A stretch of 64,000 bases of DNA. It comes from Podarcis tiliguerta (Eukaryota). How positions within the stretch are numbered: the first letter of the stretch is position 1; the number at the start of each line of letters is the position of its first letter. The position numbers are program-made. Shown here piece by piece: positions 32,901 to 41,900 of this stretch. The DNA lies in assembly GCA_965153285.1 (NCBI GenBank), contig OZ229110.1. The stretch is one strand, 5' to 3'.

Positions 32901-35900
32901 CCCACCCACCCTAACTAAGCTTGCAATCCTCCTGGAGGGCGCCAATTGATCCATTCCAACTTTGTACCTTGAGTAATTGACGCTCGCAAGTCAAAAGACT
33001 ATGGGCCAGTGAATGCCACCTAATAATCAGACTTTGCCTGCAGCTGGTGTGTCCTTTGAATTCCCCAGCGTGGTACATTCTAACAACTCAAGACTCTAAC
33101 ATGTGTGCAGTGACTCAGGAGGGCAGTCTTGCTCATCCTCTCTAATTGTTGTGTTACCTCCTGTGCCCTTTTCCTGAAGGGGGGTAGGGATAAGGGCAGC
33201 AGGCCTTGTGCCCCTTCCCCCCAAATCAGTGTTGTTATTGGTGTGTATTGACAATTTGTGATACTTGGTTTTCTACTGCATCCTTGGAATAAATATTTAT
33301 TTTTAAACTACTGTAGCTATGTGGAGCTTCAGACAAACATTGGTACACTGAGAGAACAGTGGTGCTCCTAGAAGCATGGGGGACCCCTCTTGGGGTGAAG
33401 AGAGGTACACATCTTTAAGATAACTGAGGCTTTGCAAATCATCCTAACTGCATGAAGGCGGTTCAGAAGGGACCTCATGGGCACAGAAAGTTTTTGCATA
33501 AGGAAATTCACATTCAAGGGTCCTGGCTTGGGTCTGCTGTAGGTAGCAGAGCTTTCATTTAGAGTTCAAGTATGCCCTGTGTGAGGGAGGATCTACGGAG
33601 GAAGGGTCATTTCCAAGAGGTCTAACACATGGGCCAATTGGGCATCAGTTGAGATAAGCATGAAGTAAGCCCACACAGAAAAAGTTTATTGGTGGGAAGA
33701 GCAAGGTCAGATGCTCTCAGAAATGGAACAGTGTTGCTCCAGATGCGTCTGAAGCCCCTGCCCATAGTCGGCCTCCTTGCTCAGCCACAAAAAACTTGTT
33801 GTTGGGTGCTTTGATGATCAGGCAGCTGGAGGATGCAAACTGGATGGTGAAATTGCTGGGACGGTCACTGTTTACCAAGATTTGTCCATCGTTATCCAGA
33901 GCCCAGTACTTGCTGCCTGCAGGTCAAGTGGCAGAATTAGTGGAAGGAAGGGTGAGGGTCAGGGAAGGTTAGAGGCGTGGCAAGACCAGCTCTTAGATCT
34001 CTCCGACTTTTACGAGGTAAAAGAATCACAGGTAATTAGGATATGCTTGTCATGGCAATACTAGGTATGGTTTAGAAAGAAAGCATGTATAAAGGGAAAA
34101 CATGACCGACACCTAGAATAATAAGAGTTGGAAGGGACCCAAGGGTCATCTAGTCCAACGCCCTGCAACACAGGAATCACAGCTAAATCAACCATGGCAG
34201 ATGGCCATCCAACCTGAACAGTAGTTTATCCTTAATTGGGCCTAGGAAACTATTGTCCAGGGGTCATGGAGCAAAACAAATGGCAAAGGGGGGAAAATAG
34301 TGATGATGCGCTCTTTTGCATTGTTTTGGTTTGGGAAAGCAAGTTTTGGCTCCCTCTTATGGCTACGTATAAACTAGGCTTGTTTTTATAAAAATCCTTT
34401 GATGGCAGCTCCCATTTATGAGTAGGTCATGTTTCTCTCGCAACACAGATACTAGGAGACCCCAACCCCTTGGAATATACTTAGTCCCACCTGGAAACAT
34501 ACTAACCAACTTGGAAGTTGTAGTAGCCTTCCTCGGTGAGCGACAGGCTGCTGGCAACATAGCTGACGCAGTTCCCTTCCAACTTCCTCATGTCAGAACA
34601 CAGACCCACGTAGCCGGCATCACTGTGCAGGACAAGCAGGGGCCGGTTCACCAGCACCAGCAGGAAATCTTCACTCTTCCCTGAAGGTACAAGGGAAACC
34701 TTTAGCATTGGCCGCACCTGGCTTTCAAAGAGAACTATTTTGCCACCCTTCCTTTTGCTCTCAAGAGGCAATCAGCTCCCAAGGGAAAGTCAACTTCAGT
34801 GCTAAAGATCAGGAGAAATCGCCCCACACTGAGAAGCCAGGCTGAGTGTTGTAACAGGGGCCCAGAATTCACAATGTCTCCCTCTAGTCTTTCTTACTTG
34901 ATTCAAGGTGCTGCTTATGGCACAGAAAGCTTTTAATGGCTTGGACTTCAAATACTGTTCTTCCCTTGGGTTTTATCCCGATTTCTACTGTCAGTGGCAT
35001 TTGCCCTAAAGTTCATTCAAATAACCACTATGGACAACAACTGCACAGCTGTTTCTGGTGGTGGTTCCCCCCAAACTGGAACTCATTCTCTGACTGCTTC
35101 CCAGATCATATTACAGAAACAATGTCAACCTACTTGGTATGCAGTTCTGGGGGCCAGGATTATATGCACAGAGGGGCAGTGTTTTAGTGAGTCTTAGGGT
35201 GTTTTTTTCTCTTTCATCCAGGCTGTATTTGTAGTGATGTTAGCTACTCCAAAGCGTAAGGAAGGGAGTGTAAACAGAACTCATTCCATCTTGCAAGAGC
35301 AAGATTATGAAAGTTTTGGTTGCTGATTTCCAACAAGAAGCCCTTGAGGTGTCTAAAAAGCCATTTCACAGGATGGGCTTAAGGTTGGCTCCCCATGTTC
35401 CAGTTTTATATCCAGGGACAGCTTGGTTTCTGTGCAAAGACTTTCCCCACATTATTCCTCTAGAGGGCTATCTAGGGAGTTAGTGGAAGGCTGTCGCTTC
35501 CATTCCTTTCCCCTAGAATTACCTAAAGCTAATTTGCAGCTGGCAGTGTGCAATCTCTCTTCCCACCCTAGCTGTGTTCACCTGTCCACACTGATGCCCT
35601 GGTGCTTGTAAGAGAAGCTCTCTACCAGTTTGTACCTGCAGCTTTGGGAATTGCCAGGAGCTGTCCATTGGGCCGCATGGACACTTGCTTGTCTGCTATG
35701 CGGAGACACACCTTTTGGTCTTGGTACTGGATGTCGAACCAGACATTCCTGTCCTGTTTGGTGTTGCTGTTAATACAGTCATTAGGACCCTGCAAAAGAC
35801 AGGATGCATTCGTTGGAAAGTGCTTTTTGTGTTTTTGGCTTACTTTGTCTGATAGAAACCTCCTGCAGCAGTCCCTTTATCAGCTACGTTCTGAGATCCA

Positions 35901-38900: not shown

Positions 38901-41900
38901 CAACCCTTTCGAGTTCCCTATTCCTGTATGCCCTTAACATTTCCCATTGTATTTCCCTTACCTAGAATCTCATATATCATTTGTACATGTGTGTAAACAG
39001 CCCCCTGTGCTTTGTTCTGATAGGCAAGTTGATGTTCATTGGGTCTCAGCTTTGTACAGTGTTGGTGGTGCTGACACTGCATTTGTTTCCTTGTAGATTA
39101 CACCCTATTTTTCTTGCATAGTTACTTTGGGGGTTTACGTGTGTGCTTGATAAAGCTAGAGGCCATGACCCCCAACCCAGGTATAGTGAGATGTGCCATG
39201 GGCACATGCAGGCTAAGATTAGGATTGAAGTCATGTTCTCATCTGCACTAACACACGCCTTTATCCACACTACATGTGTGTTTTAAAAACTGGCTGTATT
39301 AGATTCTTTAGCCTAGTGTGCAATTTCACTTAAAAGTGTGTGTGTGAGAGTGGGGAACCTCCAACATCAATACGGTCAGGAAAGAGGATTTGCACTTGGA
39401 AACTTCTCTGCACAGACAATTCCCTTTCTTGTCTTATTTGGAAAGTTTGCACTGGTGTCTAACTTACCAGAAAGTCTTGCATAGGGCAATTAGTAGTTCT
39501 AAGAATTACCCAAGCTAATTAATGATGTTAAGGAAATCAAAATTCCTGCCAGCCACAGTGACTTCTTGGGTAAACAGAATTTGAATTCACCTGGTATGTA
39601 TGGGGAAAATTGCCTTCTCTCACCATTGGATTCCAGACCTATTGGAGGAGATGCAAATGACTCAAACTGAACTTTTTCACACATCAATAACAGAGGACTA
39701 TCTTAGAAGGTGCTTGGGTGGCTTTTGGATTGAGATGTGTAAATAAGGCAGTGTCACTCAAACTTTTTGAATTAAGACCTTCCACTTAGAAACACTTTCT
39801 GCCTTCCCAGGCCACCCCACCCACCTGTAGCACTTAGAAATCCTCATGTACAGGTAAAATCACAAGCAGACAAACATCTGTAGAATAAAGCAGCAACTTT
39901 CTCACTGTGGGAGGAGAAAGCCTGTGACCAGTACAGACTTTCTCCATCTCTCAAGTCTTTCCAGGTGTTCAGACTTACCCCAGGTGTCTGCTCCATAGTT
40001 GGAGAGGGTAACAGAAAACTTTAAACAATCCTTAGTTCAGAAGAAGCAACTTTCTTATTAGTATGGTAGCTATAAGTCCTCATCTGCAACAGGAATTACT
40101 GTAAGTGTGTGTGTGTGTGTAACCCTACAGCAGAATGTTTTGCTTCTTTAACACGCTCCCCCAACAAAGGGGGGGGGGGAGATGTGTGTTACAGTATTAG
40201 AGAGAAAAATGCACATATCAATTGAAAACAAAATAGGAAAATGCCACCACCCACCTCTGAAATCATAGTAGATAGTGATGACTGATTCAGCTCCCCAGGG
40301 CATGTCACGGTCACAGCGCAGCACCCCCGTTTTATCATCACACCGCACATAACGCTTCCTGTTGGGGTTGTACATGGCAACATTGGGGTGCACAGCCAGG
40401 TGGAGGGTCCATTTTTCAGTTTCGGTGGCAGCCTGGGCAAAGCAAGTGACGTTCTCCTCTGCTCCACCCAGGTAGCGCTTGGACTGTTCATTTTGCAAGG
40501 ACACCTGCAGGGAGGGAAGGATGTCTGGTCAGCTACATTGCCCAAGACAAGAAAAGCAGGAACACTCTCAATGAGAGCAAAGAACATGGCAGAATAAAAT
40601 TCAGGTATCATTACACCAATTACGTTACACCTTTGGGCTTATGGAGTTGCCATGATCACCCAAGTTCCATTGTGCAACAGTTGTTTCCAGTTGTGCATGG
40701 GACATGGCTAGGGCACCTTGAAGGATACACCAGGCAACTAACTCTTAGCACAGGTACTCAAATAAGCTATTCAGACACATTCTCTCCCCTTCAACCCATA
40801 GTGGCTGACTATCATACTGTTTGGCTGACAGGGGCAAAGAGCTTTGGCTCATGTGACTGGCTTCCCAAGGAGACCATGGGGAGGAAAGTCCAGGGACATT
40901 TTGCACTCTTCCTGATGCACTTTACAGCCCTGCAGGTCAAGTGCAGGAATCTGCTGCCTGGACTTACCTGTAAGAATCTAGAAAAACCCTGCTTCTCACC
41001 ACAGCAAACTAGTCTGCAAATCGAGCTCAATCCTGCCCTCATTTCCGCCTCTTAATTGTAAAAAAACATTTGTAAGCAAAACAAGAGGCCCACATTTGGG
41101 CAATAGCGGCATAGTTTTGAGGCCCTATTGAGGCAACTTTCAGCATTGTTTCCCTACCTTCTGCCCTCCGTCTCACTCACCCAACCACACCCAACCCTCT
41201 TTGTCCAGAATTCCAGCCCGATAATATCGGACATAAGCTACACTTGAGAGATAGGATGCTTGTGCCTGGGTGAGAGACAGCACCTTGCCATCTGGATACT
41301 GATGCAAGAGGAAGAAGGTCTGAGGCCCTGGTTTGTCCTGGTCACAGGTGACTTTTCCATTTGCGTCAGCCGCCAAGTAGCGTTTCAGTGCACTGATCAG
41401 GTGAAGCTTTTGGCCAGCCCCTTCTCCTGGGCCAGCTGCCCCTGCTCCCTGTGGGCTCACAAACTGCAGTATCCACAACTGGCGAGGCTTCAGTTGCTTG
41501 CCTGTGGCTGCCACCTGGAAACGGAAAGGTTCAGCAGTCAGGTACCGGTTGGCCGCATTAACAAGGCCAAATTCTAGTGAGTATGTCATGGTGAGAATAA
41601 CAAGAGACTTGAATGGTACCCATTCATCAGACCAGTTATCTGGGCTCACTTGAGATTAATCCTGGTCCCTTAGATCACAATCATCACCTAGCAACCAGGT
41701 AAACCCACCCACTCAGCATTAAGCCCCTCCCACAGACTGTTCACCACTCAAGCTGCATTCTGAAAGTACTACCACCTCACCCGCCAGTCACAGGCAGATG
41801 CCCTTTTATGACAAACCTTCAGGAAGGTGAAACACAAACCATCTGTGCAAGCCTATGATGCCCAGAAACATTTCACTGAATGCCACTAGCAATCAGGACA

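What the first reader, a model, noticed from the sequence alone, without database searches (positions are those of the whole stretch)
35636..41589. Mosaic intron pattern of the fascin-like gene: two extra 5' introns plus an FSCN3-type 119-nt exon
Seen: coding exon sizes are 306/250/282/119/154/174/200. As I recall, FSCN1 and FSCN2 encode the first ~830 nt in one exon followed by a 157-nt exon. Here that first exon is split by two extra introns (phase 0 after PDGK, phase 1 after DFR), and the next exon is 119 nt ending in phase 0, which I recall as the FSCN3 arrangement. The N-terminal sequence nevertheless looks FSCN1/2-like, while some motifs (GGLVAL.DEEG, VSIRS, GYVG, APN) look FSCN3-like. 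Inference: a slower-evolving sister of FSCN3, useful for reconstructing fascin duplications.
Basis: partly seen in the sequence, partly recalled or inferred. Interest (0 to 1): 0.7.

Follow-up and report, generated by a model that had tools for sequence, protein, structure and literature searches.

The report
Lizard third-lineage fascin gene, seven exons
This is an intact lizard gene for a fascin-type actin-bundling protein from an old third branch of the vertebrate fascin family, and its seven-exon layout looks like the normal layout of that branch, not a mosaic.

Summary
The stated range covers only exons 1-5; exons 6-7 lie at 34507-34680 and 33717-33916. A conserved 48-nt alternative exon sits in intron 2.

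The protein is a four-beta-trefoil fascin, 97-100% identical per exon to the database protein 'fascin-like [Lacerta agilis]'. It belongs to a well-supported clade (100/100) of squamates, alligator, turtles, two frogs, sturgeon and cartilaginous fishes, separate from FSCN1 and FSCN2.

Isoforms of an electric ray show introns 2, 3 and 4 at the same places, and turtle models show intron 1. Every exon is at least as close to this clade as to FSCN1/2. So 'mosaic' is not supported.

The gene lies between TMEM216-like and CPSF7-like genes. That is not the published GCC1-ARF5-FSCN3-PAX4 block.

I could not test whether it is the orthologue of mammalian FSCN3 or a separate sister paralogue, because no named mammalian FSCN3 sequence or gene model was obtainable. 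The case is ordinary to mildly interesting.

The parts
41284..41589 (-). Coding exon 1 (306 nt, ATG at 41589; ends in phase 0 after PDGK). It includes a Gly/Ala-rich insert (about 41413-41454) seen only in the sauropsid members.
   Evidence: GT donor. E 9e-18 to fascin-1 residues 11-100. Pfam Fascin, E 7.6e-10; 99% identity to P0001 residues 1-102. One search shows the insert; pLDDT below 50 at residues 48-56.
40255..40504 (-). Coding exon 2 (250 nt; enters in phase 0, leaves in phase 1 after DFR)
   Evidence: AG/GT. E 3e-22 to fascin-1 residues 102-181; 98% identity to P0001 residues 103-185.
39591..39638 (-). Alternative cassette exon (48 nt, phase 1 to phase 1) inside intron 2. It adds 16 residues to give the 510-aa isoform.
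   Evidence: One search gives the coordinates, the acceptor ...ccaatag and the donor gtgaat. The exon is present in P0001, and related 19-residue inserts are present in 2 snake models and 1 of the 2 long gecko models fetched. The modelled segment is disordered: pLDDT below 50 at residues 189-201.
38458..38739 (-). Coding exon 3 (282 nt; phase 1 in, phase 1 out)
   Evidence: E 4e-17 to fascin-1 residues 185-269; 99% identity to P0001 residues 203-295. An electric-ray isoform (P0045) skips exactly this exon.
37429..37547 (-). Coding exon 4 (119 nt; phase 1 in, phase 0 out after ...YMSL)
   Evidence: E 3e-5 to fascin-1 residues 280-317; 100% identity to P0001 residues 297-335. Ray isoform P0041 breaks at the same place.
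35636..35789 (-). Coding exon 5 (154 nt; phase 0 in, phase 1 out)
   Evidence: E 2e-4 to fascin-1 residues 329-366; 100% identity to P0001 residues 336-386.
34507..34680 (-). Coding exon 6 (174 nt; phase 1 in, phase 1 out; donor GTTAGT). It lies outside the range given in the finding.
   Evidence: E 5e-3 to fascin-1 residues 373-425; 100% identity to P0001 residues 388-444.
33717..33916 (-). Coding exon 7 (200 nt including TGA at 33717-33719). It lies outside the range given in the finding.
   Evidence: E 4e-7 to fascin-1 residues 431-492. Pfam Fascin, E 1.7e-6; 97% identity to P0001 residues 446-510.
33685..33690 (-). AATAAA polyadenylation-signal-like hexamer 27 nt after the stop codon
   Evidence: Read directly from the sequence. 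Its use is inferred.

Best explanation
The locus is an intact gene for a fascin, a monomeric protein of four beta-trefoil domains that cross-links actin filaments into tight bundles. It belongs to an ancient third lineage of jawed-vertebrate fascins. Databases label this lineage 'fascin-like', and label the elephant-shark member 'fascin-3'.

The layout of seven constitutive exons plus one 48-nt alternative exon is the standard layout of this lineage. Three introns (here introns 3, 5 and 6) sit where FSCN1/2 genes also have introns. Introns 1, 2 and 4 are lineage-specific and old: introns 2-4 predate the split of cartilaginous and bony vertebrates.

Nothing indicates a mosaic or gene conversion. 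The N-terminus looks 'FSCN1/2-like' only because that actin-binding region is conserved in all fascins.

Shown: the gene model, the fold, clade membership, the age of the introns and the neighbourhood. Inferred: actin bundling. Inferred from the loss of Ser39: regulation that does not use the fascin-1 protein-kinase-C site. Inferred, at about 0.55-0.6: that this lineage is the non-mammalian counterpart (orthologue) of mammalian FSCN3, which would then have changed its chromosomal place and accelerated in mammals.
For: Gene model.

Family and fold:
- The Pfam Fascin domain is found in 4 of 7 exon translations and as 4 stretches in the 99%-identical database protein P0001.
- The AlphaFold model of P0001 has pLDDT 88.8 and pTM 0.86.
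- Its best PDB matches are human fascin-1, with TM 0.78-0.85 at 35% identity.

Clade:
- Exon 1 and exon 3 searches returned only this group, apart from one FSCN1-like fragment (26 of 230 and 26 of 201 candidates).
- The search with the Varanus protein gave squamates at 79-89% identity, alligator 58%, turtles 55-64%, frogs 43-50%, cartilaginous fishes 42-45% and sturgeon 45%, against 31-37% for full-length FSCN1/2 rows.
- In the tree of 45 named proteins the clade has support 100/100, FSCN1 96/99 and FSCN2 99/99.

No mosaic: per-exon identities to the chimaera member are 40/55/46/38/31/46/40%, against 34/39/33/38/31/33/28% to lizard FSCN1.

Old introns:
- Ray isoform X5 lacks exactly exon 3.
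- Ray isoform X2 breaks after the exon-4 end.
- Ray isoform X3 joins the exon-3 end to a later acceptor.
- Two turtle models join another N-terminus exactly at the exon-2 start.

Shared introns:
- Squamate-like FSCN1 fragment P0026 is one ORF from Met1 to the residue matching the exon 3/4 junction, then unrelated sequence.
- P0123 resumes at that junction.
- P0059, P0102 and P0112 carry insertions at the exon 5/6 junction.
- P0112 and P0124 break near the exon 6/7 junction.

FSCN1 and mouse Fscn2 have 5 exons each (passages of PMC8616296; PMC6169377).

Against: The link to mammalian FSCN3 is not shown by any search.
- No mammalian FSCN3 was among the 120 listed of 185 hits, nor.
- In the ESM Atlas the 'fascin-3' cluster ranked only 6th for a lizard member and 10th for the chimaera member, behind ordinary fascin clusters.
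- In the profile search, the representatives that score above the first FSCN1-type protein and carry a name are from this clade; P0125 and P0126 are unnamed. So mammalian FSCN3 is not conspicuously close to this clade.
- The gene lies between TMEM216-like and CPSF6/7-like genes, whereas FSCN3 is described in a GCC1-ARF5-FSCN3-PAX4 block (passage of PMC3759438).

Other gaps:
- Intron 1 is documented outside squamates only in turtles.
- The position of the second FSCN1/2 intron and the exon count of FSCN3 (7) are recalled, not checked.
- P0026 might come from unspliced RNA and not from genomic DNA.
- Base of the tree: the grouping FSCN1+FSCN2+lamprey has only 57/66 support, and the program warns that two long branches meet.
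Confidence: 0.75

Rival explanations
1. The clade is a fourth fascin paralogue of jawed vertebrates. It would be a duplicate sister of FSCN3 from the early vertebrate genome duplications. It would be kept at the TMEM216-CPSF7 locus in cartilaginous fishes, sturgeon, some frogs and non-avian reptiles, and lost in mammals, while FSCN3 proper (next to ARF5/PAX4) was lost or never kept outside mammals.
For: The neighbourhood differs from that published for FSCN3. A human deletion list gives TKFC, CYB561A3, TMEM138, TMEM216, CPSF7 in that order with no fascin between them (passage of PMC5485587). NCBI names the reptile genes 'fascin-like', not 'fascin-3'. The Atlas does not link the clade specifically to the fascin-3 cluster. 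PAX4, the neighbour of FSCN3, is reported lost in lizards, birds and amphibians (passages of PMC3759438), so the whole block may have decayed there.
Against: This reading needs FSCN3 to be lost independently in several non-mammalian lineages, plus loss of this gene in mammals, where a single relocation would suffice. No species in my hits shows both genes (names of the 120 listed). The Callorhinchus member is named fascin-3 by a source. Recalled only: short motifs of amniote members (GGLVAL, APN) also occur in human FSCN3.
Confidence: 0.3
2. The intron pattern is a true mosaic. In this view an FSCN1/2-like 5' part gained two introns of its own and was joined, by recombination or gene conversion, to an FSCN3-like 3' part.
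For: Exon 1 is about as similar to FSCN1/2 (34-39%) and lamprey fascin (48%) as to the cartilaginous-fish members of its own clade (40%).
Against: Exons 2, 3, 6 and 7 are clearly closer to the clade. The 5' exons are 92-95% identical among squamates and tile the same clade proteins. Intron 2 and the exon 3 boundaries are already present in a ray, and intron 1 in turtles. The whole-length tree gives the clade 100/100 support. Lamprey and tick fascins are also most similar in exon 1, which points to general conservation.
Confidence: 0.03
3. The model is a prediction artefact or a decaying pseudogene.
For: No transcript data could be consulted. Several database models of relatives are visibly mispredicted, with read-through into introns (P0002, P0020, P0022, P0025, P0028).
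Against: The reading frame of 494 codons is open, all 6 of 6 introns have canonical splice sites, and there is an A at -3 of the ATG. Squamates share 79-89% protein identity, and full-length members occur in sharks, frogs, turtles and alligator. The fold model is confident.
Confidence: 0.03

Closest known systems
Mammalian FSCN3 (testis fascin, fascin-3)
   Same: Both are divergent third fascins outside FSCN1/FSCN2. Reviews give FSCN3 29% 'homology' to fascin-1 (passage of PMC7698196); this clade is 31-37% identical to full-length FSCN1/2 rows. A source names the elephant-shark member of this clade fascin-3. Recalled, not checked: FSCN3 has 7 exons and carries GGLVAL- and APN-type motifs.
   Different: The neighbourhood differs: TMEM216-like and CPSF6/7-like genes here against GCC1-ARF5-FSCN3-PAX4. 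The databases do not name the reptile genes fascin-3. Atlas features place the clade nearer to ordinary fascins. Sequence relationship, intron positions and testis expression were not testable here.
FSCN1 (fascin-1), the solved structures 1DFC/3LLP and others
   Same: Four beta-trefoil fold with TM 0.78-0.85. There is colinear similarity over all seven exons. The N-terminal residues matching Phe29 and Lys41 are kept, and those matching Lys22 and Lys43 are Arg (alignment; the roles of these residues are recalled). Three intron positions are shared.
   Different: Only 34-38% identity. The gene has 7 (+1) coding exons against 5 exons. The residue matching Ser39, the protein-kinase-C site, is Gln here and varies across the clade. 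The gene lies in a separate clade.
FSCN2 (retinal and hair-cell fascin-2)
   Same: Same family and fold class. Similarity level is like that to FSCN1: 25-41% per exon.
   Different: It forms a separate clade with 99/99 support. Mouse Fscn2 has 5 exons.

Membership tests
Fascin family (Pfam PF06268) | Four tandem fascin-type beta-trefoil domains in about 490 residues | tested here: met
   Pfam Fascin is found in exons 1, 2, 3 and 7 (4 of 7 exon translations). There are 4 stretches in P0001, which is 97-100% identical to each exon.
Fascin family (Pfam PF06268) | Three-dimensional fold like solved fascin | tested here: met
   The model of P0001 (a database protein, not a joined window model) has pLDDT 88.8 and pTM 0.86. 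The top PDB hits are all human fascin-1, with E 1e-44 and TM 0.78-0.85.
Fascin family (Pfam PF06268) | Bundles actin filaments | not testable with these tools
   Inferred from homology only.
Fascin family (Pfam PF06268) | Regulatory Ser39 (protein-kinase-C site of fascin-1) | tested here: not met
   Ser39 aligns with Gln32 of exon 1. The column is Q, V, S, Y or I across the clade. This feature belongs to fascin-1 and does not define the family.
FSCN3 orthologue group | Groups with mammalian FSCN3 in a protein tree | not testable with these tools
   No named mammalian FSCN3 was obtained.
FSCN3 orthologue group | Conserved neighbourhood GCC1-ARF5-FSCN3-PAX4 | tested here: not met
   270 ORFs of at least 62 aa outside the gene were scanned. 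The flanks are Transmemb_17 (TMEM216-like) on one side and the CPSF6/7 RSLD domain on the other, then TMEM138, cytochrome b561 and Dak2. No Arf, PAX or GRIP domain was found. The block is named in PMC3759438. Small exons under 62 aa would have been missed.
FSCN3 orthologue group | Seven-exon gene with the same intron positions and phases | tested here: inconclusive
   Seven exons are found here. The FSCN3 exon count and sizes are recalled only: Tubb et al. 2002 is not held, and no eukaryotic genome collection is available.
FSCN3 orthologue group | Testis and spermatid expression | not testable with these tools
   No expression data were available. A sturgeon sperm proteome lists 'Fascin' without naming the paralogue (passage of PMC5659609).
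FSCN1 / FSCN2 | Falls inside the FSCN1 or FSCN2 clade | tested here: not met
   It forms a separate clade with 100/100 support.
FSCN1 / FSCN2 | Five exons, with the first about 278 codons in one exon | tested here: not met
   Here that stretch is split into three exons.

The most novel reading that the evidence does not exclude
Jawed vertebrates ancestrally had four fascin genes. This one would be the unnamed fourth ('FSCN4'), a duplicate sister of FSCN3 that shares its extra introns. It survives next to CPSF7 in cartilaginous fishes, sturgeon, basal frogs, turtles, crocodilians and squamates, and was lost in mammals, where only the fast-evolving testis copy FSCN3 remains.
Probability: 0.3. 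Interest if true: 0.55.

Novelty: new member of a known kind. Interest (0 to 1): 0.3.

Why it matters
Reviews state that vertebrates have three fascins and treat fascin-3 as a mammalian testis protein (passages). This locus shows that a third-lineage fascin with six old introns is widespread outside mammals and sits at another chromosomal place. That gives a slowly changing reference for reconstructing how the very divergent mammalian FSCN3 arose, whether by relocation or by reciprocal loss of duplicates. It also offers a clean case of intron gain or loss between paralogues. My nine literature searches bearing on this found no paper that describes this non-mammalian lineage. The gene itself is already in public annotation as a predicted 'fascin-like' protein, so the finding is modest.

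Tried and rejected
1. Intron gain by tandem duplication. The in-frame read-through of intron 1 looked by eye like the start of exon 2. The local alignment score was reached by 1085 of 2000 shuffles, so I rejected the idea.

2. Getting mammalian FSCN3.
- Three word-index searches found none: exon 1 and exon 3 with 'longer' lengths, and the full Varanus protein.
- The profile search gave 1057 hits, but without names.
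- The unnamed representatives may include human proteins, so I did not fetch or use them.

3. ESM Atlas. It did not discriminate: the fascin-3 cluster ranked 6th and 10th.

4. Literature on FSCN3 gene structure and fascin phylogeny. Tubb 2002 and Hashimoto 2011 are not held. Searches gave only reviews. One search was badly framed and useless. One search (fascin with TMEM216/CPSF7) found nothing relevant.

5. ARAGORN on the whole window found no tRNA gene, although intron 3 holds a tRNA-like repeat.

6. First coordinate guesses for exons 2-4 were off by one or two bases. They were corrected.

7. The spliced model was searched exon by exon only. The joined model was neither made nor searched. 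Whole-length work used the database proteins P0001, P0007 and P0009.

Full report
**The observation**

The gene lies on the minus strand. Reading the raw sequence and checking every boundary by script gives seven coding exons:

| Exon | Window coordinates | Length | Leaves in phase |
|---|---|---|---|
| 1 | 41284-41589 | 306 nt | 0 |
| 2 | 40255-40504 | 250 nt | 1 |
| 3 | 38458-38739 | 282 nt | 1 |
| 4 | 37429-37547 | 119 nt | 0 |
| 5 | 35636-35789 | 154 nt | 1 |
| 6 | 34507-34680 | 174 nt | 1 |
| 7 | 33717-33916 | 200 nt, with TGA | - |

- All 6 of 6 introns begin GT and end AG.
- The exons sum to 1485 nt, or 494 codons plus stop.
- An AATAAA hexamer follows the stop by 27 nt.
- The window holds no N.

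I neither made nor searched the joined model. Where a whole protein was needed I used database proteins returned by the searches.

**It is a fascin**

- All 7 of 7 exon translations have human fascin-1 chains as their best solved-structure hits, in colinear order: residues 11-100, 102-181, 185-269, 280-317, 329-366, 373-425 and 431-492. The E-values run from 3e-22 to 5e-3.
- Pfam finds the Fascin domain in 4 of the 7 exon translations. Exon 4 has a weak FRG1 match below cut-off, and exons 5 and 6 have none.
- Exon 1 is 99% identical to 'fascin-like [Lacerta agilis]' (P0001, 510 aa) and to a Podarcis muralis model. The window therefore comes from a lacertid lizard.
- Each exon translation tiles P0001 at 97-100% identity. 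Exactly one residue lies between exons at each phase-1 junction and none at the phase-0 junctions. The 494-aa forms of Anolis and Varanus are tiled in the same way. An independent annotation thus uses the same junctions.
- P0001 has four Fascin-domain stretches.
- Its AlphaFold model, built with a 30-row alignment, has pLDDT 88.8 and pTM 0.86.
- The best PDB matches of the model are all human fascin-1, with TM 0.78-0.85 at about 35% identity.

**An eighth, alternative exon**

P0001 differs from the seven-exon model by 16 residues between exons 2 and 3. These are encoded by a 48-nt exon at 39591-39638 in intron 2 (acceptor ...ccaatag, donor gtgaat, phase 1 to phase 1).

Related 19-residue inserts occur at the same place in models of Python, Erythrolamprus and the gecko Eublepharis. 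A second gecko model (Euleptes) has an unrelated insert there, probably a misprediction. In the fold model this segment is disordered (residues 189-201, pLDDT below 50). It is most likely a surface loop added by alternative splicing. Its use in vivo is not shown.

**Which fascin**

A search with the Varanus protein found 185 hits at E <= 1e-10 among 8000 scored candidates, of which 120 were listed. They fall into a graded series labelled 'fascin-like':

| Group | Identity to the Varanus protein |
|---|---|
| Squamates | 79-89% |
| Alligator | 58% |
| Turtles | 55-64% |
| Frogs (Ascaphus, Discoglossus) | 50% and 43% |
| Cartilaginous fishes | 42-45% |
| Sturgeon | 45% |
| Full-length FSCN1 and FSCN2 rows of all vertebrates | 31-37% |

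The nr database calls the Callorhinchus member 'fascin-3'.

I built a careful maximum-likelihood tree of 45 named proteins (quick version). I left out fragments, unnamed records, cassette-bearing isoforms and most of the redundant teleost rows.

- This clade has support 100/100, FSCN1 96/99 and FSCN2 99/99.
- The grouping FSCN1+FSCN2+lamprey is weak (57/66), and the program warns that long branches meet at the base.
- Paths within this clade are several times longer than within FSCN1 for the same species span, so this is not a slowly evolving gene in absolute terms.

**No mosaic**

Identity of each exon translation to representative proteins:

| Compared with | Ex 1 | Ex 2 | Ex 3 | Ex 4 | Ex 5 | Ex 6 | Ex 7 |
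|---|---|---|---|---|---|---|---|
| Chimaera clade member | 40% | 55% | 46% | 38% | 31% | 46% | 40% |
| Lizard FSCN1 | 34% | 39% | 33% | 38% | 31% | 33% | 28% |
| Turtle FSCN2 | 38% | 41% | 37% | 28% | 25% | 33% | 25% |

Exon 1 is the least specific. It is also the exon most like lamprey fascin (48%) and most like tick fascin (38%). That pattern fits general conservation of the N-terminal actin-binding region, not a different origin.

**Age of the introns**

Database isoforms and mispredictions of named relatives mark exon ends.

- In the electric ray Narcine, isoform X5 lacks exactly the exon 3 segment. Isoform X2 departs right after the residue matching the end of exon 4. Isoform X3 joins the end of exon 3 to a later acceptor.
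- Introns 2, 3 and 4 therefore predate the split of cartilaginous and bony vertebrates.
- Two turtle models carry a different N-terminus joined exactly at the exon 2 start, which marks intron 1.
- Read-through at intron 3 is seen in 5 models (P0012, P0020, P0022, P0023, P0025), and at intron 5 in 3 models (P0017, P0028, P0029).

**Comparison with FSCN1/2**

- Reviews and a knockout paper give 5 exons for human FSCN1 and for mouse Fscn2 (passages).
- A squamate-like FSCN1 fragment, P0026, is 75-81% identical to squamate FSCN1. It is one open frame from Met1 to the Gly that matches the exon 3/4 junction here, and is unrelated after that.
- P0123 resumes at the same junction.
- P0059, P0102 and P0112 carry insertions at, or within one residue of, the exon 5/6 junction.
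- P0112 and P0124 break within 2-3 alignment columns of the exon 6/7 junction, in a gapped stretch.

So introns 3, 5 and 6 are shared with FSCN1/2. Introns 1 and 2 are additional. P0026 could, however, derive from unspliced RNA.

**Neighbourhood**

I scanned 270 of the 320 stop-to-stop ORFs of at least 62 aa, namely those outside the gene. This gave 5 of 150 and 4 of 120 ORFs with Pfam hits:

| Position | Strand | Pfam hit |
|---|---|---|
| 3965-4162 | + | Dak2 |
| 13463-15011 | - | Cytochrome b561 |
| 23108-27047 | + | TMEM138 |
| 30271-31652 | + | Transmemb_17 (TMEM216 family) |
| 33717-41589 | - | the fascin gene |
| 47308-47731 | - | CPSF6/7 RSLD domain |

A human deletion list gives DDB1, TKFC, CYB561A3, TMEM138, TMEM216, CPSF7, SDHAF2 in that order, with no fascin among them (passage of PMC5485587). 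FSCN3 is described as part of a conserved GCC1-ARF5-FSCN3-PAX4 block, and PAX4 is reported lost in lizards, birds and amphibians (passages of PMC3759438; its Figure 2B and supplements were not visible to me). The lizard gene is therefore not in the FSCN3 neighbourhood.

**Relation to mammalian FSCN3 stays open**

- None of my three word-index searches returned a mammalian FSCN3.
- The profile search returned 1057 hits without names. Since unnamed representatives may be human, I did not use them.
- Atlas features rank the 'fascin-3' cluster only 6th and 10th.
- In one search the named representatives scoring above the best FSCN1-type protein are all from this clade, though two (P0125, P0126) are unnamed. 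Mammalian FSCN3 is thus not conspicuously close to it. That fits its reported 29% 'homology' to fascin-1 but proves nothing.
- In favour of a link: the source name of the Callorhinchus protein, the complementary distribution among the named hits, and, from memory only, a seven-exon FSCN3 gene and shared short motifs.
- I put orthology with relocation in mammals at about 0.55-0.6, and a separate sister duplicate at about 0.3.

**How it most likely works**

By homology it is a monomeric actin cross-linker.

- Shown: the fold, and partial conservation of N-terminal fascin-1 residues. The residues matching Phe29 and Lys41 are kept, and those matching Lys22 and Lys43 are Arg (alignment; the roles of these residues are from memory).
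- Ser39, the protein-kinase-C switch of fascin-1, aligns with Gln here and varies across the clade. Regulation through that site is unlikely.
- A Gly/Ala-rich insert in exon 1 is found only in the sauropsid members and is disordered in the model.
- Tissue of expression is unknown. A testis role is only an analogy.

**Verdict**

The 'mosaic' reading is not supported. The gene is an ordinary, already annotated member of an under-described third fascin lineage. The open question of some interest is whether that lineage is FSCN3 itself or a lost-in-mammals sister.

Noticed in passing
window 39591-39638 (-): A 48-nt in-frame alternative exon in intron 2 adds a 16-residue disordered loop. Related inserts occur in snake and gecko models, so the exon is probably old within squamates.
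   Followed up: yes
window 41413-41454 (-), inside exon 1: A Gly/Ala-rich insert of about a dozen residues is present only in the squamate, alligator and turtle members of the clade. It is absent in frogs, sturgeon, sharks and FSCN1/2. It has low model confidence. Some Ensembl models splice it out as a false mini-intron (P0020-P0023).
   Followed up: partly
window 3965-31652 and 47308-47731: The flanking genes, by Pfam hits on single ORFs, are Dak2 (TKFC-like, +), cytochrome b561 (-), TMEM138 (+), TMEM216-family (+) and a CPSF6/7-family gene (-). This is the same order as a human chromosome 11 gene list. Their exon models were not built.
   Followed up: partly
window about 37730-38080 (+), intron 3: A GC-rich tRNA-like repeat, probably a SINE. 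A 35-base core occurs only once in the window, and ARAGORN calls no tRNA. The family name was not determined.
   Followed up: partly
window 42205-42241: A perfect (TCT)12 microsatellite lies about 600 bp upstream of the start codon.
   Followed up: no
window 28001-30000: This is the GC-richest stretch of the window (0.53 against about 0.43). It lies between the TMEM138-like and TMEM216-like ORF hits and may be a CpG-island promoter.
   Followed up: no
window 40105-40175: A short (GT)n run and a G11 run lie in intron 2, just downstream of exon 2 (read).
   Followed up: no
database proteins P0002, P0020, P0022, P0025, P0028, P0030, P0037, P0044, P0047: Many public models of this gene in other reptiles and in the elephant shark are mispredicted, with intron read-through, false mini-introns or foreign N-termini. 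This may be why the lineage is poorly recognised.
   Followed up: partly
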